A stretch of 64,000 bases of DNA from Eubacteriales bacterium (lineage in GTDB: Bacteria > Bacillota > Clostridia > Oscillospirales > CAG-272): the NCBI GenBank assembly GCA_045652425.1, contig JAZRUG010000032.1:111858-175857 (forward strand), written 5' to 3'. The notes under the pieces were generated by a model. The model saw only the letters and a program-made list of their open reading frames with translations, was not told where the DNA came from and ran no database searches. This document shows, piece by piece, positions 42,831-61,240 of this stretch; positions within the stretch are counted from its first letter, which is position 1, and the number at the start of each line of letters is the position of its first letter. The position numbers and the translations under genes are program-made.

Positions 42831-42917
42831 TGGTGCCGGAAGCGGGGGTCGAACCCGCACGGTATCGCTACCACTGGATTTTGAGTCCAGCACGTCTGCC
42901 AATTCCATCATTCCGGC
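42831..42917 (-). tRNA. tRNA-Leu(CAA)
   Basis: GCCGGAA acceptor stem, CTGGA-CT-CAA-AA-TCCAG anticodon arm, long variable arm, GTTCGA and encoded CCA. TTGACA-17-TATAAT promoter at 42966-42938. Confidence 0.96.
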
Positions 42918-48024: not shown

Positions 48025-48215
48025 TTTCTATACACTCCAATCGCTTTTTCGTTTACTTTATTATACCCCTCACGTTTTATTTTGTCAACAACACGCCTAC
48101 TGCAACTTTTATGTTATGGTAGAATACATTATTTAACTATTGACAACTTGCTGACTATGTTATAAAATGTAGTGGTAGTAATATCGAATTCGTTTCGTTC
48201 AGCGAGGTAAACAAT

Positions 48216-49400
48216 ATGAAAAATTCAATTATTATTCCCTCCGCCCTTCAACTTTGCATTGATGATATCGGTTGGTTTAACGGCGCTGACGAAAGACATA
48301 TAGGCAGACCGTCTCGTACGGGGATGCCGAGAAAACACGTTCCCGAAGATTATACCGTATTGAACGAAATAGGTAAGGCGCTCGATATGAAAATAATCTG
48401 CCCTCTCATACTTGGCGAGTGGGATAAAGATAACCTATTAAGAAACGAGGTCGGTGCAACCTTTCAGCCTTTCACTTGGGACAGAGCCTCTTTAATAGAT
48501 TATAAGATTGCAGAAAAGTCGCTTGAGGTTGCTGAAAACAGCGAATTTATTGAATACGCGTATCACGGTTTACTTCACGGCACATACGACGAAAAAGGCA
48601 ACCAAATTACAGAATGCGAATTTTTTGAATATAAAAGCCCGACAGATAAAACATTGGTACTCCAAACGGAAGATGAAATTCTTCACCGTATGGAGATTTA
48701 CTACAAAATATACGACTCTTGGGGCTTCAAGAAAAAAATCCGCTCATTCTCTTCCCCAACCGTTATTCCTCAATATTTTAAAGCAGAAAATCTTCTCCCA
48801 CTTGCATCGGCGTTGGAGAAAAACGGTATTTATTATTGGACGAACAGGTGGAAAAGCGTTATATCTTATTCGGAGTTTATCGGAAACGTTTTGTATTTAG
48901 AAAAAAACGTCAGATACAAAAACCCAAGAATTGGTATTCCATGGAACGCCTATGATTTTGACCCAAATTATATTATGGATTTTGCAAAATCGGGCGATGA
49001 CGTCATTGGTGATATCTTAAGCACACATTGGCCAAATTATCTCCGTTTCAACTATCAGAAAAACCTTGAATCAGTTGAACCTTGGGTAAGATATTTAAAA
49101 AAGCAGAGTGAAGTTTTTGGGCTTATGCTTTCAAAAGATATCGTATTCTGCGGAAATCAGCATTTGTACAAAAAATTTACCAGAGCAACAAAAATCAAAA
49201 ATATTGTTACTTTTGACGTTTCGGAAGTTTCAAAAAACTCTAAATTACAACTTACACCTGAATTTTACGTTAGCTTTAAAAACGGTGTGGTTCCACAAAG
49301 CATCACAGGCGGCAGTTTTGAACTCTACGAAACACACAAAAATTTTATAACTTATAAAATCAAGCACACAACCAATATTATACAAATCACCGTAAATTAA
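48216..49400 (+). CDS. Polysaccharide-deacetylase-like protein, paralog 1 of 3
   Basis: LCIDDIGW, YHGLLH and HWPN motifs resemble NodB/CE4 metal ligands. TTGACA-17-TAAAAT promoter at 48140. Confidence 0.65.
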   Translation: MKNSIIIPSALQLCIDDIGWFNGADERHIGRPSRTGMPRKHVPEDYTVLNEIGKALDMKIICPLILGEWDKDNLLRNEVGATFQPFTWDRASLIDYKIAEKSLEVAENSEFIEYAYHGLLHGTYDEKGNQITECEFFEYKSPTDKTLVLQTEDEILHRMEIYYKIYDSWGFKKKIRSFSSPTVIPQYFKAENLLPLASALEKNGIYYWTNRWKSVISYSEFIGNVLYLEKNVRYKNPRIGIPWNAYDFDPNYIMDFAKSGDDVIGDILSTHWPNYLRFNYQKNLESVEPWVRYLKKQSEVFGLMLSKDIVFCGNQHLYKKFTRATKIKNIVTFDVSEVSKNSKLQLTPEFYVSFKNGVVPQSITGGSFELYETHKNFITYKIKHTTNIIQITVN

Positions 49401-49447
49401 CGGTCATTAGCATAAATTGTAAATGATAAAAAAGGAGTATAGATTTA

Positions 49448-50616
49448 TGAAAAATTCAGTCATTCTCCCCTCGGCGCTTCAACTTTGCGTTGATGATGTG
49501 GGGTGGTTTTTGGGAAGAGATGATAGACATATGGGACGCCCTTCGCGTACCGGTATGCCAAGAAAGCATTTTCCCGAAGACTATGAAGCTCTTGCCGACC
49601 TCGGTAAAGCTATCGATATGAAAATTATGTGCCCTATCTGTCTCGCAGAATGGGATAAAGATAATATTTTAAGAGGAAAACCCGGATTTACATACGAGCC
49701 CGATACTTGGGACAGAGCATCTATTATCGATTATAAAGTTGCTGAAAAATCATTCGAAATTGCAGAAAACAGTGAATATATCGAATATGCATATCACGGA
49801 AATCTTCACGGCAACTATGCCCCCGACGGAAGCCAAATAACAGAAATGGAGTTTTTTGAATACAAGACACCCGAAGATACCCTTCTTTCTACACAGTCAG
49901 AAGAAGAAATACTCTACAGACTTGACGTCTTCAATCAAATATACAAATCTTGGGGATTCAAGAAAAAAATCCGTTCGTTCTGCGCTCCAAACGGTATTCC
50001 CAAACACCTCACAAATGAAGATTTGTTACCGTTGGCATCAGCTCTAAAGAAGAATAACATTGAATATTGGACAAGTCGTTGGAAAAAAACTGTATGTGAT
50101 ACCGTATTCTACGATGGTATTATCTATATGGAAAAGAACGTTAACTTCGGTGTGCCGTGGGATGCGTACGATTTTGACCCCGAATATATGAAGGACTTTG
50201 CAAAAGAGGGCGATGAGGTTATCGGTGACGTTCTCGGTATGCATTGGCCCAATTTCTTGCATTATCAACCGCAAAACAACTATAAGGCTTTGGGCGGTTG
50301 GGTGAAATATTTCAAAAAACAGGCTGAAATATTCGGTCTTATGCTCTCAAAAGATATTGCTTTCTCTTCCAAACAGCACGTTTACCGCCGTTTCAGTAAG
50401 CTTTCATTTGAAGAAAATAAAGTTATTGTTGACCTGACCGACGTTCTTAACAAACCTACTGATGCACTTGAAGGCGAGTTTTATATAAGCTTTAAAAACA
50501 ACGTTACTCCTATTGAATGTAACGGCGGAAGTTTTGAGCTTTACGAAACTCACAATAACTTTAAAACATATAAAATAAAACACACCTCTGACAAAGTACA
50601 AATCACTGTTAATTAA
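49448..50616 (+). CDS. Polysaccharide-deacetylase-like protein, paralog 2 of 3
   Basis: MKNSVILPSALQLCVDDVGW..YHGNLH..HWPN. AAGGAG RBS before the MKNSV start codon (position approximate). Confidence 0.65.
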
Positions 50617-50647
50617 TATGCAAATGATAAAAAAGGAGTATATATCT

Positions 50648-51817
50648 ATGAAAAACTCAGTAATTCTTCCTGCTGCTCTGCAGCTCTGCGTTGACGACAT
50701 CGGTTGGTTTAGAGGCTCAGATGACAGATACGTAGGAAAACCCTCACGTACAGGTATGCCGAGAACACACGTAGCAGAAGACTATATCATTCTGAACGAA
50801 ATCGGTAAAGCCATTAACCAAAAGATCGTTGCTCCCTTCGTTATCGGCGAATGGGATAAGGATAACATTCTTCGCGGCGAAATCGGTGCGACTTACGAAC
50901 CGGAAAACTGGGACAGAAGAAAAATCATTAATATGGAACTTGCAGAAAAGTGCTTTGAAGCGTCTGAAAGTTCTGAATATATCGAAAACTGCCATCACGG
51001 TCTCCTCCACGGAAACTATGATGCCAACGGTGGTCAGATAACAGAATTGGAACACTTCTATTATAAGAACCCCGGCGAAAAACTTCTCTACACTTTACCC
51101 AAAGACGATATTGAACGCAGATTCGAACTCTACTTCAAAATCTACGATTCTTGGGGCTTCAAAAAACCTATTCGTACATTCTCTTCCCCCACAAACGTTC
51201 CGAAAAACTTAAAGGCAGAAGACGTTATTCCTCTTGCTGAAGTTTTGGAAGAATACGGTATGAAATATTGGTTTAACCGTTGGAAAGGTCAGATTTGTTA
51301 CTCTGAATTTATCGGTAACACATTATATATTGAAAAACACAGAAAATTCGGTATTCCGTGGAATGCTTACGACTTCGACCCCGAATATCTCTTTGATTTC
51401 TACGAAGAAAAAGACGGCGAAATCGGTGATATTATGAGTACTCACTGGCCCAACTTCTTAAGATTCAACTACCAGAAGAATATGGAATGTCTTGAACCTT
51501 GGGTTAAATGGTTCAAAAAACAGGCTGAAATTTTTGGAGTTATGCTTTCAAGAGATATTGCATTTTGTTGCAATCAGCATATTTACAGAAAATATAGCGA
51601 CCTCACCTTCGACAACAACGTATTGACTATTGACGTTTCAGGCGCAGTTAGCTTCTCAAAGCTTCCTCTTGATGATGAATTCTATATCAGCATCAAGAGC
51701 GACCTTGTTCCCTTTGACGTTCAAGGTGGTACAATCGAGCTTTATGAAAGCCACAAGGACTTTAATAACTACAAAATTACACGTTCAAGCGATAAGATTG
51801 TAATTACACTTAACTAA
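50648..51817 (+). CDS. Polysaccharide-deacetylase-like protein, paralog 3 of 3
   Basis: MKNSVILPAALQLCVDDIGW..HHGLLH..HWPN. Same RBS context as paralog 2. Confidence 0.65.
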   Translation: MKNSVILPAALQLCVDDIGWFRGSDDRYVGKPSRTGMPRTHVAEDYIILNEIGKAINQKIVAPFVIGEWDKDNILRGEIGATYEPENWDRRKIINMELAEKCFEASESSEYIENCHHGLLHGNYDANGGQITELEHFYYKNPGEKLLYTLPKDDIERRFELYFKIYDSWGFKKPIRTFSSPTNVPKNLKAEDVIPLAEVLEEYGMKYWFNRWKGQICYSEFIGNTLYIEKHRKFGIPWNAYDFDPEYLFDFYEEKDGEIGDIMSTHWPNFLRFNYQKNMECLEPWVKWFKKQAEIFGVMLSRDIAFCCNQHIYRKYSDLTFDNNVLTIDVSGAVSFSKLPLDDEFYISIKSDLVPFDVQGGTIELYESHKDFNNYKITRSSDKIVITLN

Positions 51818-51820
51818 ACT

Positions 51821-51852
51821 TATGAACCCCTTTTCACGAAAAGGGGTTCATA
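51821..51852 (+). terminator. Intrinsic terminator
   Basis: TATGAACCCCTTTT-cacg-AAAAGGGGTTCATA. Confidence 0.8.
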
Positions 51853-52012
51853 TTTTCATTTTAATGAAATTAATATTGTACATCTTTTTAAAAGCATTAA
51901 TTAAAATTGTGTATTGCAAAAAAAAGCTATTGATTATATAATTGAATTAAGATAAGTAAAAAATAAAAGTTTTGATTCCTATCAAAACTAAAAATCAAGG
52001 AGACTATGAATT

Positions 52013-53233
52013 ATGTGTATCAATCCGTTACGTCAAAAAGTTGTTGACTATATGAAAAATATGGCAACAATTGAATGGATCCCCGACGAAAATTTTGTAA
52101 CCTATAATCCCGGTAATAGAGGAGGATGTACTTCACAACTTTGCGTATACCGCAAAGGCGTTAAATACTACGGACCTCCTTACATTAACGGAAATATGAC
52201 TAACGCTGAAACATTCAATGACAAGCGTGTCGGAGCGTACATTCCCTTCCCCGGAACAGAAGAGGAACTTAATAAAATTGATTCTGTTGCTTCCCTTAAA
52301 GCAATTGGTGGAGAAATCCTTGAAACCTCTATCAAAAATGCATTCACTTTCCCCGGAAATGACTGTATGGGTGCTGTTCAAATCGCTTGGAACGCTGCTA
52401 TAAACAACAATGAGAAAATGCAGAAATTGCAGTTCTGTAATAACACCATCCCCTTTGAAGGCGCTTGTGTTATTCCTGTAGGCGAATACGTTTGCAACCC
52501 TGATCACGGCAACAACACAGACCTTATCTGTGAAGAAAACGGCGAACAGGTTATGGCTAAAGCATACGCTCAACTTCTCCCCGGCGATGCTGTTACTCAC
52601 GTAAAATCACGCGATAGTAATGCACGTCATATCAGACTTGTTGTCGGCGAACCTTACGTTGAATACAAAACCCTTGAAAACGGCGAAAAAGTTATTAATA
52701 TGGATATAAGTTACGTTAAACTTCTTGACCAAGCAGGAGGCGCATCAAGACGTTACGTTAAGGGACCTATCAAGGCTTCAATGCAAGAGCACGAATGGAA
52801 GTTTATCGACCTTTATAACGGTGCAGATTTGCCTATAACGCTTCCTGAACTCGTATCCGGCGACAACGGCGTAGAAAATACTGTTCTTGAAGATGCTGTA
52901 ATTGACACTCTCTTCACTGAAAAGAAAATATCCGGTAAAGTAACTTCTAACAGACAGATTATTTATGCAAGAGCTGAAATAACCGACGGCACTACCGTTT
53001 ATACAATAAAAGACATTGTTCCTATGGCTATCCGCCACAAGAGAAACTACCACAACCCCGTTTATGATCTTGAAAACCTTGATTTCTCTTGCTTTAACTT
53101 TAAGGAAGACACACAATATACGTTCAATCTCTTTGTATGTACTTCGGGTAACGAAGGCAAAGAAATTAACCTCGTTAAAGACTTTAAACGCGAAGGCAGA
53201 TACAGAAACGGTTGGACCTACGAGGAACTATAA
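52013..53233 (+). CDS. Hypothetical protein, possibly NlpC/P60-like (Cys-His) fold
   Basis: 406 aa with an AAGGAG RBS. GNDCMGAV..LLPGDAV..HIRLV spacing. No signal peptide. Confidence 0.55.
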   Translation: MCINPLRQKVVDYMKNMATIEWIPDENFVTYNPGNRGGCTSQLCVYRKGVKYYGPPYINGNMTNAETFNDKRVGAYIPFPGTEEELNKIDSVASLKAIGGEILETSIKNAFTFPGNDCMGAVQIAWNAAINNNEKMQKLQFCNNTIPFEGACVIPVGEYVCNPDHGNNTDLICEENGEQVMAKAYAQLLPGDAVTHVKSRDSNARHIRLVVGEPYVEYKTLENGEKVINMDISYVKLLDQAGGASRRYVKGPIKASMQEHEWKFIDLYNGADLPITLPELVSGDNGVENTVLEDAVIDTLFTEKKISGKVTSNRQIIYARAEITDGTTVYTIKDIVPMAIRHKRNYHNPVYDLENLDFSCFNFKEDTQYTFNLFVCTSGNEGKEINLVKDFKREGRYRNGWTYEEL

Positions 53234-53342
53234 ATTAATTTCAAGCAGTTACATTTTTGGTAACTGCTTGTTTTTTTGTATTATTTTTAAAAACCATTGA
53301 CATGTTGACGCAAAAATGATAAAATACAAAAGTACTATATTT

Positions 53343-53429
53343 GCGGGTATGGCGGAATTGGCAGACGCGCTAGATTCAGGTTCTAGTGAGGGCAACTTCA
53401 TGCAGGTTCAAGTCCTGTTACCCGCACCA
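53343..53429 (+). tRNA. tRNA-Leu(CAG)
   Basis: GCGGGTA acceptor stem, CTAGA-TT-CAG-GT-TCTAG anticodon arm, long variable arm, GTTCAA and CCA. TTGACA-17-TAAAAT promoter at 53297. Confidence 0.96.
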
Positions 53430-53524
53430 AGTCTTAATAGCTTGAACCTCTTTACCGTTGGTAAGATGTTCGGGCTATTTTGCTTTATGTCGGAGTATGA
53501 AAACTTCGAAGAATAAAGGCATAG

Positions 53525-53559
53525 CAAAGCCGCAGGCGAATTTTCGTCTGCGGCTTTGT
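53525..53559. terminator. Hairpin / terminator at the island's left end
   Basis: CAAAGCCGCAGGCGAA-tt-TTCGTCTGCGGCTTTG. Confidence 0.7.
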
Positions 53560-53575
53560 GTATTCAGGTATTCCC

Positions 53576-53797
53576 TTATGCTTCTATTTCATCAAGTTTG
53601 TTTTCTTGGTTGCTTACTCTTTTCTCGGTGCTGTCAGCGCCCTGTTTTTTACGAGCCTTCCATTCTGCATAGTCTCGTTTTCCTTCTTCGGATGCAAGAT
53701 ACTCCCGCATAATCGGCAGTAGTATTCGTGCCAAAGATTCCATTTCATATTCGGGGATACCTAAATCATTGCGAGGGATTTTCTTTTTTCTCGGCAT
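53576..53797 (-). CDS. Small mobile-element protein (73 aa)
   Basis: AAAGGA RBS. IPEYEMESLARILLP..Y..SEEG..YAEWK pattern; downstream of the tyrosine recombinase. Function unknown. Confidence 0.7.
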   Translation of the reverse strand: MPRKKKIPRNDLGIPEYEMESLARILLPIMREYLASEEGKRDYAEWKARKKQGADSTEKRVSNQENKLDEIEA

Positions 53798-53827
53798 GAT
53801 ATAGTTATCCTTTCTTTTTTGATTTGA

Positions 53828-54790
53828 TCACTCTTCATAGATTTTCGTGATTCCGGAACGATGATGACCGAGTCGCTCTGAGACCTCTCGTCTTGCCTGT
53901 TCCTCATTCATACCACGGGCAATAAGTCTTTCTTCCGTCTTTTGTGCGTAAGTGTGCCGTATTGCATGCCAACCGTAACCGCTGTCTGCTCGCTCTTTCT
54001 TGCCCTCTTTGACCTGAGTCTTTCGATCGGGACCCAAAATTTCGTCAATATGATTGCTCATCCAATTGGTCAATGCTGTCTTTACTTTCTTCACGCTATT
54101 CTTGTGATTATCGCAGAACAAATAATTGCTTGACTTCTTTCCGTCTGCTTTAGCAATATTTAAAATTCTTTGTAGCACTATAACTTGTTCTTCTGTATCA
54201 AGCGGAATAGCTCTTGCCTGACCGCCTTTTCCGTTGGGTATGTGTAACTGTTTTGATTTAAGAGCTTCTTCCAATTGATAGATTCTTAATGTGACAAGCT
54301 CATTCTTTCGCAGACCAAAATGGTAAACAATATATACCCCAAACACTACGTCACGTCTGTCTCCGCTTTTTGCTACATCTACCATTTTCGTCAGTTCACT
54401 GTCAAGGAATCCTTTGTTGTACTTGCCGACCTCTCGCTTCTCTAAATCCAGCTTCTTGTTCTCGGGCAGTTTGTTCTTGCAATTTGAATGCTTGTGCCAA
54501 AATCGGATTGCGGATAACTCGGTCAGAATATACGATGCGCTTTTTCCGTTTGCTTGAAGGAAATCAACGTAGGCGAAGATGTGCTTGGCAGAAACATTCT
54601 TAACATTCTCAAGACGAAATTCAACTGCAAGGAATTTGGCAAAGCGGTCTTCAAGCGCAGGGTGATAACGCCTTCTTGTTTCAATCGATCCATTGTTACA
54701 GTTATTAATATCGCGCCTGAACTGAACTGCAAGGTTGTTCGCCATATTCGCTTGCATCTCGGTTAATTCATACTTAATCTGAACGCCCAT
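53828..54790 (-). CDS. Tyrosine recombinase (Integrase_1 / phage-integrase N-terminal-like)
   Basis: Complete catalytic set: FGLR, NGKGG, HAIR, LGH, KIY. N-terminal GS.ETRRRY..KHI..YV..G.S..ELSAIR. AAGGAGGTG RBS before the ATG at 54790. Confidence 0.92.
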   Translation of the reverse strand: MGVQIKYELTEMQANMANNLAVQFRRDINNCNNGSIETRRRYHPALEDRFAKFLAVEFRLENVKNVSAKHIFAYVDFLQANGKSASYILTELSAIRFWHKHSNCKNKLPENKKLDLEKREVGKYNKGFLDSELTKMVDVAKSGDRRDVVFGVYIVYHFGLRKNELVTLRIYQLEEALKSKQLHIPNGKGGQARAIPLDTEEQVIVLQRILNIAKADGKKSSNYLFCDNHKNSVKKVKTALTNWMSNHIDEILGPDRKTQVKEGKKERADSGYGWHAIRHTYAQKTEERLIARGMNEEQARREVSERLGHHRSGITKIYEE

Positions 54791-54912
54791 AGGACTTTCA
54801 CCTCCTTTCTGCAAATTTTGCAAACGAAAATTTCAATGTTTTCGTTTGTACTGTTGTAGTAATGCATTGCAAAAAGGGGTGTTTTCAAGAAAAATACAAA
54901 AATTTCTTGAGC

Positions 54913-54951
54913 AAAAAAAGCAGGGGCGAAAGATTTATCTTTCACCTCTGC
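54913..54951 (-). terminator. Intrinsic terminator about 120 nt upstream of the tyrosine recombinase
   Basis: Minus strand GCAGAGGTGAAAGAT-aa-ATCTTTCGCCCCTGC followed by T7. Confidence 0.75.
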
Positions 54952-54994
54952 GTTTTGCTGACGAAAATAATGTCCGAGACCAAAATTTATGAGC

Positions 54995-55585
54995 TATCAT
55001 CTCGAAACGAAAATTTTCGCCGTCATATCGATACGACTATCATATATCATTCCAAAAGGACAGCATACTTTCAAACTTGAGGGGACTCTTTTTCAGCCGA
55101 CTGTTTTGTGTGTGATACGGCTTGTACCTATACCGCTTGTCCGTATTACACATAAAACAGCCGGAACGCCGAAGGCGAAAAAACGCCTCCCTACAATTAA
55201 TCTATAGGACCTCATTTCAAAGAGAGAATCATACATTATCATTTCGAAATCATAGATTCTCATATATCATTTCAAAAAGACCGCGGCAAGGCATAGCTAT
55301 CCCATTGGCACGTGAGGCTATTTCTCGTGTCATTTCTTCTGTTTTCTTTCTCTATGCTCTAAAAATGCCTTGCCGTACGGCGACTTCAATAGTATTTTCG
55401 TCGCCGTTTCTATTTTCTTCGCCAATAGAAACGGCGACGCTTTCAAAAAGACAATCATCAATCATTTCAAAATGAGCCGTTCCACTTATCATAGAACAGT
55501 TATTGGGGAGATAACTGCTATGCGGGACTTTTCATATATCATCTCGAAACGATAATCATAGAGCATATCGAAAAGTGTATCATAT
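54995..55585. repeat. Clustered direct repeats, consensus TATCATYTCRAAANGA
   Basis: Copies at 54995, 55023, 55045, 55212, 55237, 55265, 55441 (partial), 55460, 55537 and 55563 (degenerate). The 54995 and 55537 copies are identical over 16 bp. Confidence 0.85.
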
Positions 55586-55868
55586 TTGATTGTGTAACAA
55601 TGAAGGTGAGTACAGCGGATATAATCCGGCGCATACCTGCCACGTGACAGGCGTCAGATACTCGCGTACTGACAGCGCAGTGCCGTATACTGTAACTGCT
55701 TACAGTGCCTACTTAATTCGGTCGACGGCAAGGATTTCATTTACCATTTGAAATCCGGGAAACTTCGGCTGTGACCTTTGTCGCACAGAGACAGCGGTTA
55801 AATTGACCGTGCCGCACACGGTTGACTGCTTGGCAGATCTTTTGCTTTGGCTGTGGGGTCAGCCTTTG

Positions 55869-55976
55869 CTATCCACCATTTTCATTCACAGCCGCAGTCT
55901 GCCGTGAACCGTTCGTTGCCTTGTCACTTAAATTTGAACGTTGTAGGCAATACTTTCTTGGGATTTGTCCTTTCAT
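55869..55976 (-). CDS. Putative 35-aa small ORF MKGQIPRKYCLQRSNLSDKATNGSRQTAAVNENGG
   Basis: AAGGAGG RBS (55990-55984) 7 nt before the ATG. Below the ORF-track cutoff. Confidence 0.45.
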   Translation of the reverse strand: MKGQIPRKYCLQRSNLSDKATNGSRQTAAVNENGG

Positions 55977-56057
55977 TTGAATTCCTCCTTCATTGTCATA
56001 AATATATTTTGACTCCAAAGCAGGCTCCTTGCCTGCTGGAGAACAAAAACAAGGTAC

Positions 56058-56086
56058 AAAAAAGCACCTACCCGAAGATAAGTGCT
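56058..56086 (-). terminator. Leader terminator / possible attenuator
   Basis: AGCACUUAUC-UUCG-GGUAGGUGCU-UUUUU, with a cUUCGg loop and G.U pairs only on the minus strand. Confidence 0.8.
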
Positions 56087-56179
56087 GCTGTTGCTGTATA
56101 CGGAAGGAAACATACTACCTCGAAGGTTCTACTGAGTTTGGTTTTGAATGCTTCCTTCATATTTTTTAAGCTCATATAT

Positions 56180-56208
56180 AATATAATCGATTTTGGGGCA
56201 ATCGTCAA
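56180..56208 (-). promoter_or_regulatory. SigA-type promoter firing into the non-coding region
   Basis: TTGACG-17-TATATT. Confidence 0.6.
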
Positions 56209-56260
56209 GGTGGTGTGACACAATTATTTTTAAATTCCAATCACAAACGTTACATTACGA

Positions 56261-56297
56261 AATACACGTCAGATGTTACCATCTGACGTGTGTTATT
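56261..56297 (-). terminator. Hairpin downstream of the cargo operon
   Basis: ACACGTCAGATG-ttac-CATCTGACGTGT, about 60 nt after the stop of 56356-57129. Confidence 0.6.
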
Positions 56298-56355
56298 TTT
56301 GTGCATTGTTTAAGTGTTTTTGAAATTTTGTATTATACACTCAGTTTAAAAAGGT

Positions 56356-57129
56356 TTAGTACAATTCTTCGACACCCTTACTATTGTATCTTTCTTCTCG
56401 TAATGGTTCTTTATCTCCTGTTACGTAACGAATGAGTGTTCTAATGCGCTTCCAATCCATATCGTTTATTTCTGCCAAAGAACCATTGTCCAAACGAGCA
56501 AAATATAGTTTAGGAGTACCGTCCGAAAATTTCCCATCACAATACACTATAAAATGATCATGACTGTCAGTGAACTCAAAACTCAAGACTACTTCCACCG
56601 TTGTTTCTGAACCGTCAGAATTTTCAATAATCATGCGCTTATTATTGGTAGTGGCATCTCCTGCTGTAGCAATATTTTGCTGCCACTCTCTGATTAGATT
56701 TTTTGGAATGTTATCCATTGCAACATTAACTATTTTAAATTCCTCATTGTTGATAAACTTGCCAACTGTTAATTTTACTTTTGTTCCTCTAAACACAATT
56801 GTATTTGATACAGGGCATTGCTTAACGACGACAACATTATCATCAACTATCAGTGAATATTTCAATTTTTCTCTTTCCAAAAAGAGTATTGCATCTTTTA
56901 TTTTAAGTCCTGTTACATCTGGAACAATAGAAAAGAACATATTCAGTATGGTAGTTATCGATGAAAAAATATTAATTGTTAACAAAATGTACCAAAACAA
57001 AGGTTCAATCTCTATTCCTATTGCAATATGAGAAATCAGTGTAAATAAATCCAGCAAGATGGCACACAAAATAAAAATGACACGTATAAATACATTTTTC
57101 TTTAGGAAAATCCAGCTAATGTATGTCAT
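56356..57129 (-). CDS. Membrane protein: 2 TM + PASTA-like domain + DUF1292-like domain
   Basis: VPDVTGLKIKDAI..L..KL..VVKQCP..GTKVKLTV (PASTA). IIENSDGSETTVEVVLSFE..FIVY..LAEIND.DW..I (DUF1292-like). Confidence 0.65.
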   Translation of the reverse strand: MTYISWIFLKKNVFIRVIFILCAILLDLFTLISHIAIGIEIEPLFWYILLTINIFSSITTILNMFFSIVPDVTGLKIKDAILFLEREKLKYSLIVDDNVVVVKQCPVSNTIVFRGTKVKLTVGKFINNEEFKIVNVAMDNIPKNLIREWQQNIATAGDATTNNKRMIIENSDGSETTVEVVLSFEFTDSHDHFIVYCDGKFSDGTPKLYFARLDNGSLAEINDMDWKRIRTLIRYVTGDKEPLREERYNSKGVEELY

Positions 57130-57153
57130 ATCTAGTTTCTTGTAACCAGGCGA

Positions 57154-58887
57154 TTACTTATTATTACAAGTTTCAAATATGTTCTCTTTCTCCAATGTTC
57201 TATAATCAACTTTACCAATATCAGTTAAAGGCAGTTTATCTATAGAAAAAAATTCTACAGCCGTATCTCGGGGGGGCAACTTCTTATCACAATGCTCCTT
57301 GATATCATTGAGCACATTTTCATCGTTTTTATAGTCATCTTTTAACACAACAAACACTATCGGCCATTGCCCGCTTGTGTGCTCTTTGTCCTTTCTGCCA
57401 ACTACCGCACAAGTTTCAACAGCATTATGTTCCAAAATAACATTCTCGATTGCTACCGGAAATACGTTGTGTCCATCAGGGCGGATAATCATACGCTTCA
57501 ATCTTCCCTTGATATAGATAAAGCCGTCTTCATCCATATATCCGATATCGTTTGAATGAATCCATACATTCCCATCGGAATGCTTTTTTAAAACCTTTTT
57601 TGTTTCTTCATCATTTGCCATATATCCAACCATCATAGCCGGAGTAGATATGCATATTTCTCCTTCTTGATTGTAAGATAACTCATTGTCAGTGCCCGGT
57701 TCAAAAACAGACACTATTGTTTTACAATGTGGAACCCCCACACTACCAATTTTATTGACATTTCCATGGCAAGCCACAGCGGCAGAACCTACTTCTGTCA
57801 TTCCATATCCTTTCGCAATATTGTATTTGTTATTATGCGATTTAAGGAATTCGTTTATCTCATTTTCCATTTTAATATTAAATGCATCACCGCCTGCGCC
57901 AGCACTCTCTAGAAACGATAAATCATAGCCTTCCATTTTCTTTGATTTTGAAAGTTTCTCGTAATGTGTTGGTACACCAAGAAAATGAGCGGGTTTGTAT
58001 TTAATAATTAAATCATCGAATTCATCTGGATTAAATACAGGTATTAATACGTTGTTTAACCCTAAAACCAAGGGCATATGTATACCGCAAGTGATACCAT
58101 ATGCAATAAACGGAGGCATAATGTCAAGGAAGTTTTGCTTTCGGTTATAATTTGCTCCTAACAAACGATACTGCATTGCGATTATGTTAAGCGTATCATT
58201 CGATAACATTGCCCCTTTAGGTACACCAGTGGTTCCTCCAGTATATACGATTGTTGCAACATTATTCTTTTGATATGAAATAGTTTTAATTGTTCTTTGA
58301 GCACCCGATTTGATAAATTGTTTCCAATCAACGACTGCTGAAAATTTTGGGCTTTTGTTTTTCAGTGAATAACCCATTCTCATAAAGACGGGTAACGAGT
58401 CTTTAGGAGAAAGATTAATAATGTTTCCATTAAAGCCCAACTCTCTAAGTTTTATTATCTTGGGGATACACTTATCAATTGCGAGTATGCATTTTGTTTT
58501 GGAATTTTCGATATAAGTTTTTATACGTTCAAGATTCGTGCGTGGATCTATCATATTAGAAATAGCACCTAAACGATTAAGAGCATATACTGAATAAATA
58601 ACTTCTGGAATAGTGACGGAACATATAGCAACTACATCGCCATCTTTTATGCCTGCACTGGCAAAAGCCTTAGCGGTTTTGTCAATGTTTTCAAATAATA
58701 CTTCATATGTAATTTTCTTTCCATAGTAAATGAGCGCAACATCGTCAAGGTGATCTTTGTTGTTTTCCCAAAGGTACTCATAAATAGTATGTTCAGGCAG
58801 TTTAGCATTGATAGCCTCTTCTGTGTAATACTTCAACCAAGGTTTATCAATAGAAGGGTGGCCTGTAAGTTTTTGTTCTGTGTTCAT
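57154..58887 (-). CDS. Class I adenylate-forming enzyme (acyl-CoA ligase-like)
   Basis: YTGGTTGVPKG, GYGMTE, DIGYMD..GRLKR and PLTDIGKVD motifs. Confidence 0.92.
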   Translation of the reverse strand: MNTEQKLTGHPSIDKPWLKYYTEEAINAKLPEHTIYEYLWENNKDHLDDVALIYYGKKITYEVLFENIDKTAKAFASAGIKDGDVVAICSVTIPEVIYSVYALNRLGAISNMIDPRTNLERIKTYIENSKTKCILAIDKCIPKIIKLRELGFNGNIINLSPKDSLPVFMRMGYSLKNKSPKFSAVVDWKQFIKSGAQRTIKTISYQKNNVATIVYTGGTTGVPKGAMLSNDTLNIIAMQYRLLGANYNRKQNFLDIMPPFIAYGITCGIHMPLVLGLNNVLIPVFNPDEFDDLIIKYKPAHFLGVPTHYEKLSKSKKMEGYDLSFLESAGAGGDAFNIKMENEINEFLKSHNNKYNIAKGYGMTEVGSAAVACHGNVNKIGSVGVPHCKTIVSVFEPGTDNELSYNQEGEICISTPAMMVGYMANDEETKKVLKKHSDGNVWIHSNDIGYMDEDGFIYIKGRLKRMIIRPDGHNVFPVAIENVILEHNAVETCAVVGRKDKEHTSGQWPIVFVVLKDDYKNDENVLNDIKEHCDKKLPPRDTAVEFFSIDKLPLTDIGKVDYRTLEKENIFETCNNK

Positions 58888-58908
58888 AAATTATCTCCTT
58901 TTTGACCA

Positions 58909-59081
58909 TTATCAAAAGGTACACCTTTTGATAATGGTCTCGTTTAATACGTTGGATGAAAAATCTGTAACTTTTTTCGAAATTTTGTCGCATTGAATGG
59001 CTAAATCACTTGAATTTTTTGCATTTTTATGATATACCTATCTAAATAATTATGCCTATCAAAAGGTGTACCTTATGATAG
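58909..59081. promoter_or_regulatory. Putative invertible promoter flanked by 26-bp serine-invertase sites
   Basis: TTATCAAAAGGT-AC-ACCTTTTGATAA (58909-58934) and CTATCAAAAGGT-GT-ACCTTATGATAG (59056-59081), with complementary central dinucleotides. Internal TTGAAT-17-TATACC with extended TG. Confidence 0.72.
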
Positions 59082-59089
59082 TTACTGCT

Positions 59090-59719
<630 letters not shown>

Positions 59720-59935
59720 CTAAAAATATTTTACCTTAGAGTTGTGTAAAATTCCTTATCAGGTAACAATATGGATTGCATTTGGGGCTCTTTTCAAAAA
59801 AACAATAATCATACAACTATTAATTTTCGTCACAAAAAAATTACGCATAATATGAATTTATAATCCATATATGTATTGACCGTACGCTTTGTTTGTGTTA
59901 TAATATCAATATACGAAAAAGCGAGGTGTGTTTTA

Positions 59936-60304
59936 ATGACGAAAATTATTGGTAAAAGGCTGAGAGAACTGCGTGTGGAAAACCGCTACTCTCAGCAGCA
60001 GATCGCAGAAATGTGTGGATTGACACAAGCGACCATCGGCAGATACGAGCAAGGACTTGTTGATGTTGCATTGGACAAGCTATTTTGGTACGCAGAACAT
60101 TTTGAGGTATCTTTGGACTACATCTTCGGAAGAACCGATGATCCCAAGGGTCATCTGTACGATAAAGACGAGCCGTCCTTGCCCTCTGATGCAAGTATCA
60201 ATGACTTTATTGAGTTCTGCTTTGATCCTACTTCACCTGCCAACGCCAAGCTGAAAAAGATGCTTGTACAGTTAATGGAGGATAGCAAAAGACGAGAGCA
60301 GTAA
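59936..60304 (+). CDS. XRE-family HTH transcriptional regulator
   Basis: RLRELR..SQQQIAE..TQATIGRYEQG..VSLDYIFGRTD. GAGGTG RBS and a TTGACC-17-TATAAT promoter at 59876-59904. Confidence 0.92.
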   Translation: MTKIIGKRLRELRVENRYSQQQIAEMCGLTQATIGRYEQGLVDVALDKLFWYAEHFEVSLDYIFGRTDDPKGHLYDKDEPSLPSDASINDFIEFCFDPTSPANAKLKKMLVQLMEDSKRREQ

Positions 60305-61197
60305 TTTACGCTCGATATTCATCGGACAATCAGCGTGAAGAGAGTATAGACGGGCAACTTCGTGAATGTATGGAATTTGCCAAATACAACGAAATGACTG
60401 TTGTTAATACATATATTGACCGCGCACTGTCTGCCAAACCAGATAATCGTCCTGAGTTTCAGCGAATGATAAAGGATAGCTACAAATGCAACTTTGATGT
60501 AGTTATCGTTTGGAAGTTAGACCGCTTTGCACGTAATCGCTATGACTCAGCACACTACAAAGCACTTCTAAAAAAGAATCGCGTGCGTGTGGTGTCTGCT
60601 AAAGAAACTATTTCTGAAGGCGCAGAGGGCATTCTGTTGGAATCCTTACTTGAAGGCTACGCAGAATACTACTCCGTAGAACTTGCCGAAAAAGTCAAAC
60701 GAGGACTTACAGAAAACGCTCTGAAAGGTGTTTGGAACGGCGGTACGGTTCCTTTCGGTTATGTCGTCAACAAGCAAACTCAGAAGTTGGAGATCAACCC
60801 ACTTGCCGCAGAGGTTGTCCGTGAAATCTTTGATATGGCTTATGATGGCAAGACAGTCAAAGAGATTCATCGTTATTTAGAAGAAAAGAATGTCACACGT
60901 TCTAACGGAAAACCGCTCCGCTATAATGCAGTACGCTATATTCTCTCCAATCGCACGTACATAGGCGAATACAATCATTCGGGTGTATTAATTGAAGATG
61001 GGGTTCCCGCAATCATTGAAAAGGATCGTTTTGAAAGGGTTCAAAGTGAATTGAAAAAGAACTCCAAGGCACCGGCACGACACACAGCAGACGATGATTA
61101 TCTTCTCACAATGAAATTGTTCTGCGGTAAATGCGGGGCAATGATGGTAGCACAGGCAGGCACAAGCCACACAGGATATGTGTGTTTCTGCCGGTAA
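60292..61197 (+). pseudogene. Large serine recombinase; ACG at the start position and C-terminally truncated
   Basis: In-frame (ACG)RAVIYARYSSDNQREESIDGQ upstream of the tracked ORF, then DRFAR and the recombinase domain. Stops just after the first CGKCG of the Zn ribbon. Confidence 0.85.
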
Positions 61198-61240
61198 TTC
61201 AATGCTTTTTAATCAAGTCCGTTATGAACACCCGCACCAC

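What the first reader, a model, noticed from the sequence alone, without database searches (positions are those of the whole stretch)
53828..56208. Tyrosine recombinase coupled to a ~1.25 kb structured, repeat-punctuated non-coding unit
Seen: an intact tyrosine recombinase is preceded on the same strand by about 1.4 kb with no credible long ORF. The stretch has a promoter (TTGACG-17-TATATT, 56208-56180), a ~115-nt leader ending in a UUCG terminator, a 35-codon ORF and a ~350-nt dense hairpin core. Clusters of a 16-bp repeat then alternate with long hairpins, and a terminator closes the unit just before the recombinase RBS. Established: ordinary integrase att sites are far shorter, and the island also encodes a large serine recombinase that could account for the tRNA integration. 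Inference: this could be an undescribed recombinase-plus-RNA module, or a recombinase acting on an array of its own sites and cassettes. It is the best candidate for a new system in this window.
Basis: partly seen in the sequence, partly recalled or inferred. Interest (0 to 1): 0.85.

Follow-up and report, generated by a model that had tools for sequence, protein, structure and literature searches.

The report
Giant structured RNA gene beside integrase
The 1.4 kb gap in front of this integrase gene looks like the gene for a very large folded non-coding RNA of no described family, and it travels with one particular group of integrases on small mobile islands of gut and rumen Clostridia.

Summary
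An intact Xer-like tyrosine recombinase (53828-54790, minus strand) follows about 1.4 kb with no conserved ORF. That stretch has a promoter, a leader terminator, a folded core, repeat clusters alternating with hairpins, and a closing terminator.

The stretch is a conserved unit. Versions of it (sequence types A-C, plus one divergent copy) lie upstream on the same strand of every recombinase of this clade that I could inspect (36-93% identity). None of 79 more distant relatives has it. In type A it is more conserved than the recombinase gene (83-86% against 75% nucleotide identity).

Three sub-structures show compensatory base changes: 94-97% of cells are paired, and 0 of 500 shuffles match the covariation in the two that were tested. 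G-U outnumbers A-C 40 to 8 on the sense strand. No Rfam family matches.

The recombinase is most likely the integrase of a 7.8 kb island in tRNA-Leu (53430-61239), which an empty site in a congener delimits. The island's large serine recombinase is a 275-aa remnant.

Best reading: a new, very large (1.1-2 kb) structured RNA coupled to an integrase clade. Its function is unknown. I infer a protein-binding scaffold or regulator of recombination. Transcription was not shown.

The parts
56180..56208 (-). Promoter of the non-coding unit (TTGACG-17-TATATT)
   Evidence: 10 of 12 matches. A promoter-like site stands at the same relative place in type B (L033 5963-5991, TTGACG-17-TAAACT). L008 and L010 have one directly before the core (read from alignment A1).
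56056..56172 (-). About 115-nt leader: a hairpin, then an intrinsic terminator (stem 56086-56063, T run)
   Evidence: The terminator sequence is shared by types A and B. L008 and L010 lack the leader. The 30-codon ORF in it is broken by a 1-nt insertion in L006 (by eye).
55560..56050 (-). Folded core domain. A long-range helix (56006-55983 with 55609-55581) encloses a multi-helix junction of about 370 nt and contains the non-conserved 35-codon ORF 55976-55869.
   Evidence: Near-invariant across 5 type A loci. RNAalifold predicts 150 pairs, 9 with compensatory change. The 3' half aligned with type C gives 31 pairs, 16 compensatory, 0 of 500 shuffles. z = -5.5.
55527..55591 (-). Repeat cluster 1 (about 24-nt unit TTYGRAATGA-N3-4-ATGA)
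55275..55480 (-). Module R1: repeat, hairpin 55439-55399 with an invariant inner stem, then long-range helix 55375-55365 with 55294-55284
   Evidence: Found in types A, B and C and in the divergent copy L141. 23 pairs, 96.5% paired, 29 double-change cells against 9.0 +/- 2.5, 0 of 500 shuffles. An alternative partner for the 3' strand co-varies in 13 of 16 sequences.
55205..55284 (-). Repeat cluster 3 (three units)
   Evidence: Copy number differs in L010, L008 and L005.
55096..55166 (-). Hairpin H2 (24-nt arms)
   Evidence: I1. Shared with type C. 20 pairs, 6 with compensatory change.
54990..55064 (-). Repeat cluster 4, with the CGAAAATTTTCG palindrome
54908..54972 (-). ATTTTCGTCAGC motif, then the closing intrinsic terminator of the unit
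   Evidence: (I3). Stem changes between the window and L008/L010 are compensatory (by eye). Type C has the same layout: terminator, promoter-like site, integrase.
54821..54848 (-). Inverted repeat CAAACGAAAA-N8-TTTTCGTTTG just before the recombinase RBS (operator or site; function not tested)
   Evidence: read directly. The arms are kept and the spacer changes in L005 and L006.
53828..54790 (-). Xer-like tyrosine recombinase, the probable island integrase
   Evidence: A tRNA lies downstream in 6 of 6 type A relatives that reach far enough.
53576..53797 (-). 73-aa ORF of no known family, kept downstream of the recombinase in type A only
   Evidence: tblastn hits in L005-L010, 6 of 6, and none in other types at E<=1e-3. 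No Pfam or NCBIfam match.
53343..53429 (+). tRNA-Leu(CAG), the integration target. Its last 10 nt (53420-53429) are the left direct repeat.
61230..61239 (+). Right direct repeat ACCCGCACCA, the far end of the 7.8 kb island (53430-61239)
   Evidence: Empty site in congener G304: the tRNA 3' end is joined directly to the sequence that follows 61239.
60370..61197 (+). Truncated large serine recombinase (275 aa)
   Evidence: Pfam Resolvase from profile position 25, plus Recombinase. The CcrB model scores 129 bits against a cut-off of 900 and covers profile positions 36-315 of 542.

Best explanation
Window 56208-54908 (minus strand) is a self-contained transcription unit for a very large structured non-coding RNA. 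The RNA is about 1.1-1.3 kb here and about 1.8-2.2 kb in type B relatives.

The unit is the conserved neighbour of one clade of Xer-like tyrosine recombinases. In type A these are the integrases of small islands inserted at the 3' ends of tRNA genes in Oscillospirales-type Clostridia.

The RNA has three parts:
- a 5' leader ending in a terminator, which may work as an attenuator;
- a core of about 450 nt closed by a long-range helix;
- a 3' array in which stable hairpins alternate with clusters of a single-stranded repeat of about 24 nt.

What is shown: conservation, strand-specific base-pair covariation, promoter and terminator signals, and linkage to the recombinase clade.

What is inferred, at roughly 0.3 on its own: the repeats bind many copies of a protein. 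That protein could be the recombinase, whose clade carries Lys/Arg-rich insertions, or a host or island factor. On this reading the RNA is a scaffold or regulator that sets when the island integrates or excises.
For: (1) Conservation. L005 and L006 come from other species and match the window only over 56209/56233..53343, at 89%. In L008 and L010 the non-coding part 56048-55269 is 83-86% identical, while the recombinase gene is 75%.

(2) Linkage. The unit lies upstream on the same strand in every clade member with enough flank.
- Type A: 6 loci.
- Type B: L030, L031, L033, L143, L144, L020.
- Type C: L034-L037 and L114.
- L141, at 36% identity.
In a sample of 400 genomes of the order, all 6 genomes with a recombinase of 39% identity or more also hold the unit; in 5 of them it is on the same contig, upstream and on the same strand. 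For the 7 loci with a recombinase at 33-37% identity, 6 show no unit and the seventh (L141 in G013) holds a divergent one. The R1 model hit none of the 79 metagenome and viral loci with 22-36% identity, L039-L113 and L115-L118.

(3) Structure.
- A6: 23 pairs, 96.5% paired, 29 double-change cells against 9.0 +/- 2.5, 0 of 500 shuffles, slid controls at most 46% paired.
- A7: 31 pairs, 16 compensatory, 94.6% paired, 0 of 500 shuffles, slid controls at most 49%.
- A8: 20 pairs, 6 compensatory.

(4) Strand. In these three structures there are 40 G-U cells against 8 A-C cells. RNAalifold favours the sense strand: -139 against -129, -218.5 against -189.2, -33.8 against -27.8. Promoters and T-run terminators are on the sense strand in types A, B and C.

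(5) Not coding. The ORF frame is not kept, and its 'RBS' is base-paired.

(6) Not a known RNA. Rfam gives only tRNAs above threshold.

(7) Recombinase features. The 7 unit-linked recombinases in the alignment share the insertions LQNWMSNH and GKKxR before HxxR. Six of the 7 fully aligned relatives without the unit lack them; L107 keeps a related WIRNH stretch.
Against: - Transcription is not shown. RNA-library contigs of relatives cover the unit and the recombinase gene at similar low depth, and DNA carry-over cannot be excluded.
- For the type A core the antisense strand folds about as well (z = -5.15 against -5.53).
- Covariation and G-U excess would also arise in folded sense-strand DNA. 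The structures were predicted on this strand with G-U allowed, which biases the G-U count.
- No complementarity to the tRNA or att region beyond 10 nt was found, so nothing ties the RNA chemically to recombination.
- The unit has its own terminator, and regulator genes can sit between it and the recombinase. It may therefore be an independent gene.
- The alignments hold only 8-16 related sequences.
Confidence: 0.6

Rival explanations
1. The unit is an independent 'ornate' RNA cargo, like ROOL or GOLLD. It would be a large structured RNA carried by mobile elements for a role unrelated to recombination, for example in host physiology or in interplay with phages. On this reading it sits next to the integrase only because both belong to the island's conserved backbone.
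For: The unit has its own promoter and terminators. Regulator genes can separate it from the recombinase. No complementarity to att was found. ROOL and GOLLD are described as often lying near tRNAs and in prophages (passages read in PMC5737381). Modules such as R1 and H2 are optional, as are peripheral domains of large RNAs.
Against: Order and strand relative to the recombinase are fixed across all types, down to 36% protein identity. The unit was not found apart from this clade, except on short contigs or beside a truncated recombinase. The clade has its own insertions. No Rfam model matches.
Confidence: 0.25
2. The unit acts as DNA. It could be an array of folded or duplex sites used by the recombinase (an integron-like platform), or an iteron-type origin or packaging region for the excised island.
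For: - The repeat has a period of about 24 nt, lies in one orientation, and varies in copy number, as iterons do.
- In type B, regulator genes are flanked in L030 and L143 by duplicated copies of ATTTTCGTCA-N21-TGACGAAAAT.
- Folded single-stranded DNA sites such as attC also show covariation (passage in PMC5737381).
- The best fold match is integron integrase 2a3v.
- Distant relatives of the recombinase sit on small plasmids behind 0.85-1.5 kb with no listed gene.
Against: - The unit has promoter and T-run terminator signals.
- A long-range helix encloses a multi-branch domain of about 370 nt.
- There are no cassettes between the hairpins.
- The unit is 1.2-2.8 kb from the island's att core.
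- The integron-integrase model scores 24.9 against a cut-off of 265.
- No replication or relaxase gene is present among the island's genes that I scanned.
- There is no nucleotide match in plasmids or phages.
- The plasmid stretches show no similarity to the unit.
Confidence: 0.12
3. The unit is a very long regulatory 5' leader of the recombinase mRNA. Read-through of the two terminators would control integrase synthesis.
For: It is on the same strand, with terminators at both ends of the unit. An alternative pairing in R1 looks like a switch.
Against: A promoter-like site lies between the closing terminator and the recombinase in type C. In type B, genes on the opposite strand separate the unit from the recombinase. 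The size and conservation are far beyond known leaders.
Confidence: 0.03

Closest known systems
ROOL and GOLLD large 'ornate' bacterial RNAs
   Same: They are very large structured non-coding RNAs of unknown function, carried on mobile elements and often near tRNA genes (passages in PMC5737381). The habitat is similar: rumen and gut Firmicutes.
   Different: No match to any Rfam model. This unit is longer, at 1.1-2.2 kb, against an average of 581 nt stated for ROOL. It has a repeat-and-hairpin array and a 5' terminator leader. It keeps a fixed position upstream of one recombinase clade.
Integron (IntI with attI/attC)
   Same: Both have a tyrosine recombinase without an arm-binding domain, next to conserved hairpin-forming non-coding DNA. 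2a3v is the top fold match. Insertions lie between the beta-hairpin Lys and HxxR. In type B, gene insertions are flanked by inverted-repeat sites.
   Different: The IntI model scores far below its cut-off (24.9 against 265). There are no cassette ORFs between the hairpins. The unit is on the same strand as the recombinase and has promoter and terminators. The recombinase appears to integrate a whole island into a tRNA gene.
IS110 recombinase with bridge RNA
   Same: A recombinase gene is preceded by a structured non-coding RNA encoded in the same element.
   Different: The recombinase class differs: this one is a tyrosine recombinase. The RNA is about ten times longer. No guide-like match to target or donor was found (10 nt at most). 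The bridge RNA's properties are recalled and seen in an abstract listing.
tRNA-targeting genomic islands with P4/lambda-type integrases
   Same: The island is inserted at the 3' end of a tRNA gene and flanked by a direct repeat of the tRNA end. The integrase gene lies next to the tRNA.
   Different: The integrase is Xer-like, with a SAM-like N-domain only. It carries a conserved 1.4 kb non-coding partner.
Multi-site protein-sponge RNAs (CsrB/RsmZ type; recalled, not tested)
   Same: Many copies of a short single-stranded motif are set between hairpins.
   Different: The motif is different, the RNA is much larger with an added core domain, and it is encoded on a mobile element. No binding protein is known.

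Membership tests
Tyrosine recombinase (Pfam PF00589 Phage_integrase) | Catalytic domain match and the R-K-H-R-H/W-Y residue set | tested here: met
   PF00589 scores 6.8e-12, 45.9 bits against a cut-off of 27.1. R161, K188, H275, R278, H309 and Y318 are invariant in 17 sequences; their roles are assigned from recalled family knowledge. Fold matches include IntI, XerA, Tn1549 Int, XerH, Cre and lambda Int.
XerC/XerD chromosome-dimer resolvases | Score above the NCBIfam equivalog cut-offs | tested here: not met
   XerD scores 55.5 bits against 329.6. XerC scores 51.9 against 335.15.
Integron integrase (IntI) | TIGR02249 score above cut-off | tested here: not met
   24.9 bits against 265. PDB profile hit to IntI4 2a3v at only 1.1e-6.
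Integron | Array of promoterless cassettes, each ending in an attC hairpin, next to a divergently oriented intI | tested here: not met
   There are no ORFs between the hairpins. The unit is co-oriented with the recombinase. In type B the inserted genes lie on the opposite strand; that they bring their own promoter and terminator is my reading of the flanking sequence.
Any Rfam 15 RNA family, which as I recall includes ROOL, GOLLD, OLE, group II introns and riboswitch or T-box leaders | Covariance-model match | tested here: not met
   Window 52000-58000 at E<=1: only the tRNA is above gathering. 15 loci at gathering threshold: tRNAs only. Types B and C at E<=5: only weak chance-level hits.
IS110 bridge-RNA system | IS110-type recombinase, and RNA loops complementary to target and donor | tested here: not met
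   The protein is a tyrosine recombinase. The longest match between the unit and the tRNA or att region is 10 nt, no better for a unit paired with its own tRNA than with another locus's tRNA.
Type III toxin-antitoxin (ToxIN-like) | Tandem RNA repeats, a terminator, then an endoribonuclease toxin gene | tested here: not met
   The repeats-terminator-gene layout is present, but the gene is a recombinase.
tRNA-integrated genomic island | Empty site in a relative, and a direct repeat of the tRNA 3' end at the far border | tested here: met
   In G304 the tRNA-Leu end is joined to the sequence after 61239. ACCCGCACCA occurs at 53420-53429 and 61230-61239 and nowhere else in the window.
Large serine recombinase (as the island's integrase) | Full-length protein of about 450-550 aa with Resolvase, Recombinase and zinc-ribbon domains | tested here: not met
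   275 aa. The Resolvase match starts at profile position 25 and there is no zinc ribbon. The CcrB model is covered over positions 36-315 of 542. Intact proteins of 509-550 aa stand beside the module in L033, L034 and L114.
Functional non-coding RNA (general) | A transcript of defined ends is detected | tested here: inconclusive
   Contigs from two RNA libraries cover relatives of the unit and of the recombinase gene alike.

The most novel reading that the evidence does not exclude
The RNA is a dedicated partner of the tyrosine integrase. It would form a ribonucleoprotein in which many recombinase molecules (or a recombinase-recruited factor) load on the 24-nt repeats. The folded core and the R1 switch would then license or block integration and excision of the island. 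This would be the first tyrosine recombinase with its own large RNA cofactor. A related variant of this reading: the sense-strand hairpins and the ATTTTCGTCA...TGACGAAAAT sites are also used as folded substrates for capturing genes next to the integrase.
Probability: 0.2. Interest if true: 0.92.

Novelty: new variant of a known kind. Interest (0 to 1): 0.8.

Why it matters
Bacterial non-coding RNAs longer than 500 nt with complex conserved folds are very few, and each has opened new biochemistry. This candidate is longer than ROOL (581 nt on average) and, as I recall, than GOLLD and OLE too. It has clear covariation and a strict genetic partner, which gives an immediate experimental handle: the integrase and the excision or integration of a small island. 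If the RNA acts with the recombinase, tyrosine recombinases would join the short list of RNA-assisted DNA recombination systems. If it acts alone, it adds a new class to the unexplained 'ornate' RNAs carried by mobile elements of gut and rumen Clostridia.

Tried and rejected
**Readings tested and rejected**
- Decayed gene or small protein: rejected. The 35-codon ORF loses its frame in L008 and L010, and its Shine-Dalgarno-like stretch is one strand of a helix. The 30-codon leader ORF is broken in L006.
- Repeat as a mini-hairpin (TCATT-TCGA-AATGA): rejected. Over 104 copies only 297 of 520 stem cells are Watson-Crick, with 39 G-U against 42 A-C.
- Arm-type att sites: rejected. The att core lies at the tRNA end, 1.2-1.8 kb from the repeats on the far side of the recombinase gene.
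- RNA guide for the target: no support, 10 nt at most.
- Known RNA family: none.

**Searches that found nothing or little**
- Nucleotide similarity to phage or plasmid records: none for type A, none for type B in phages.
- Second copies in the window's own genome: none.
- R1 model in 145 genomes of other orders of the class: no hit. The filters were stricter there and only 16 candidates per genome were scored, so this is not proof of absence.
- Small plasmids of Bacilli carry recombinases of 26-32% identity behind 0.85-1.5 kb with no listed gene. nhmmer found no likeness to the unit. That annotation table is incomplete by its own description.

**Inconclusive**
- Expression: read laying on two RNA and two DNA runs gave contigs of relatives over both the unit and the recombinase. 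A part without cover is no finding. The 56170/54867 joint could not be resolved.
- Thermodynamic strand test on the type A core: not discriminating.
- The fold of the recombinase (pLDDT 87.2) and the fold search place it among ordinary tyrosine recombinases without naming a subfamily.

**Literature**
Four searches were seen as listings and abstract starts. Passages of PMC5737381 and PMC11109978 were read. I found no description of a large RNA tied to tyrosine recombinases. Supplements were not opened. The supplementary motif lists of PMC5737381 could hold a motif that overlaps part of this unit.

**Rows left out**
- The motif count used 68 loci.
- It left out L056, L062, L063, L065, L069, L076, L078, L080, L082, L091, L095, L096, L100, L102, L103, L105, L110 and L113 (mostly short contigs), L115-L118, L007 and L009.
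- later scanned L034-L118 with the R1 model.
Full report
**What is in the window**

On the minus strand an intact tyrosine recombinase gene occupies 53828-54790. The listed ORF runs to 54823, but the ATG at 54790 behind AGGAGG gives the 320 aa of its homologs. It matches Pfam Phage_integrase (6.8e-12) and a SAM-like N-domain. It keeps six invariant residues that fit the family's catalytic set (roles recalled).

Upstream, 54824-56355 has no long ORF.
- Promoter TTGACG-17-TATATT at 56208-56180, with 10 of 12 matches.
- A leader terminator at 56086-56063.
- A closing terminator at 54946-54925. Nine terminator-like sites were found against 2.9 +/- 2.0 expected.

The repeats are real and lie on one strand only. 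With a strict pattern, 7 of the window's 13 minus-strand hits lie in 54980-55600, and the plus strand has 3 hits in all. The repeat unit is about 24 nt, TTYGRAATGA-N3-4-ATGA, with 9 copies here. The hairpins between the clusters are confirmed.

**Setting**

A congener (G304) has the same tRNA-Leu, but its 3' end is joined directly to the sequence that follows window 61239. ACCCGCACCA stands at 53420-53429 and 61230-61239. So 53430-61239 is a 7.8 kb island in tRNA-Leu(CAG). In order, it holds:
- the 73-aa ORF, the recombinase and the non-coding unit;
- a PASTA-domain protein, an AMP-ligase, a small resolvase and an HTH protein;
- a 275-aa remnant of a large serine recombinase.

In two other species (L005, L006) only 56209/56233..53343 is shared with the window, at 89%, and the rest differs. 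The recombinase, small ORF and non-coding unit are therefore the conserved backbone and the rest is cargo. All 6 type A relatives that reach far enough downstream have a tRNA gene (Leu x2, Trp x2, Ala, Leu-TAG) on the opposite strand. This makes the tyrosine recombinase, not the serine remnant, the likely integrase.

**The unit is a family tied to a recombinase clade**

All-against-all comparison sorts the upstream regions into three types:
- Type A: the window and L005-L010.
- Type B: L014-L033, L038, L143 and L144. One genome, G013, has two copies.
- Type C: L034-L037, L114 and L013.

A fourth, divergent copy lies before a 36%-identical recombinase in G013.

In a sample of 400 genomes of the order, 6 hold a recombinase of 39% identity or more, and all 6 also hold unit DNA. 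In 5 of them the unit is upstream on the same contig and strand; in the sixth both pieces lie at contig ends. The 79 metagenome and viral loci with recombinases of 22-36% identity have no R1 module. The 58 more distant loci that I checked have 0-1 repeat motifs; 56 of them have upstream gaps of about 340 nt or less, and two (L079, L094) have a 1.67 kb ORF-free gap without the motif.

In type A the non-coding part is better conserved than the gene: 83-86% against 75%. The 7 unit-linked recombinases in the alignment share the insertions LQNWMSNH and GKKxR just before HxxR. Six of the 7 fully aligned relatives without the unit lack them.

**RNA evidence**

Three sub-structures were tested on alignments that span types.
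- R1 (16 sequences, types A, B and C): 23 pairs, 96.5% paired, 29 double-change cells against 9.0 +/- 2.5, 0 of 500 shuffles, slid controls at most 46% paired.
- The 3' half of the core (9 sequences, types A and C): 31 pairs, 16 compensatory, 94.6% paired, 0 of 500 shuffles, slid controls at most 49%.
- Hairpin H2 (8 sequences): 20 pairs, 6 compensatory.

Within type A, a long-range helix (56006-55983 with 55609-55581) closes the core. It uses the 'RBS' of the 35-codon ORF, whose frame is not kept in L008 and L010.

Evidence for the strand:
- The three structures hold 40 G-U cells against 8 A-C cells.
- RNAalifold prefers the sense strand in three alignments.
- Promoter-like sites (types A and B) and T-run terminators (types A, B and C) are on the sense strand.

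In R1, a copy of the hairpin's 5' strand lies 13-16 nt downstream and co-varies with it in 13 of 16 sequences. This suggests alternative pairing. No Rfam family matches any type.

**Against the RNA reading**

- No transcript was shown. RNA-library contigs of relatives cover unit and gene alike.
- The type A core folds about equally well on both strands.
- Folded sense-strand DNA would give the same covariation.

**What it might do**

No segment matches the tRNA or att region beyond 10 nt, so a guide role has no support. The repeats are not hairpins and are too far from the att core to be arm sites. Many copies of one short motif set between stable hairpins, in variable number, is the layout of a multi-site protein-binding RNA. 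Together with the strict synteny and the clade-specific basic insertions, this leads me to infer a scaffold or regulator acting with the recombinase. That is inference, at roughly 0.3.

The main rival is an independent 'ornate' RNA cargo like ROOL or GOLLD, which are also described near tRNAs and on mobile elements. A DNA-level role keeps some weight for three reasons:
- In type B, HTH-TPR regulator genes lie between unit and recombinase in 4 of 4 loci with inserts.
- In L030 and L143 these genes are flanked by duplicated copies of ATTTTCGTCA-N21-TGACGAAAAT.
- The best fold match is an integron integrase, although the IntI model fails (24.9 against 265).

**Comparison and novelty**

The recombinase is a tyrosine recombinase, but not XerC/D and not IntI by the curated cut-offs. 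The island is an ordinary tRNA island. The non-coding unit belongs to no described RNA family and I found no paper on it (seen as listings; passages). I file it as a new variant of a known kind, large ornate RNAs of mobile elements. What is new is a fixed recombinase partner, a repeat-and-hairpin array and a length of 1.1-2.2 kb.

Noticed in passing
window 48100-53280: Four paralogous genes of 394-406 aa with no Pfam match (48216-49400, 49423-50616, 50618-51817, 52013-53233) lie between sequences that are adjacent in congener G304. They may be a second insertion or a local expansion just upstream of tRNA-Leu.
   Followed up: partly
window 54867 and 56170: Contigs of one DNA run and one RNA-library run join these two places with 19-20 other letters between. 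This is either a relative without the 1.3 kb unit or a head-to-tail junction of the unit (table 5c).
   Followed up: no
L120 (G049), downstream of its tRNA-Leu: The last roughly 20 nt of the tRNA plus about 150 nt of downstream sequence occur twice, about 250 nt apart. This looks like the scar of an earlier island at the same site.
   Followed up: no
L033 9608-11140, L034 5757-7286, L114 5736-7388: Intact large serine recombinases (509-550 aa) lie within 0.3-0.8 kb downstream of the tyrosine recombinase in types B and C, in varying orientation. The window's island holds a remnant. This recurrent pairing is unexplained.
   Followed up: partly
L030 8170-10575, L031 7784-8896, L143 1728-2795, L144 2936-4069: HTH_3 plus TPR-like regulators of 305-377 aa (and one sigma-70-like gene in L030) sit on the opposite strand between the unit and the recombinase. 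They may control the module.
   Followed up: partly
L152 (B. cytotoxicus pCh1_14) and L153 (Brevibacillus laterosporus plasmid): Recombinases about 31% identical to the window's sit on small non-mobilizable plasmids behind 0.85 kb and 1.5 kb with no listed gene. The Brevibacillus stretch has long hairpins but no sequence likeness to the unit.
   Followed up: partly
G013 (L030, L031, L141): One genome carries three modules: two type B copies and one divergent copy with a 36%-identical recombinase.
   Followed up: partly
window 42831-42917: A second tRNA-Leu (CAA) lies on the minus strand, about 10 kb from the first. Its surroundings were not examined.
   Followed up: no
L010 3970-4491: A 173-aa protein with a weak DRAT (ADP-ribosyltransferase) match lies between the small ORF and the tRNA, as cargo of a type A island.
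   Followed up: no
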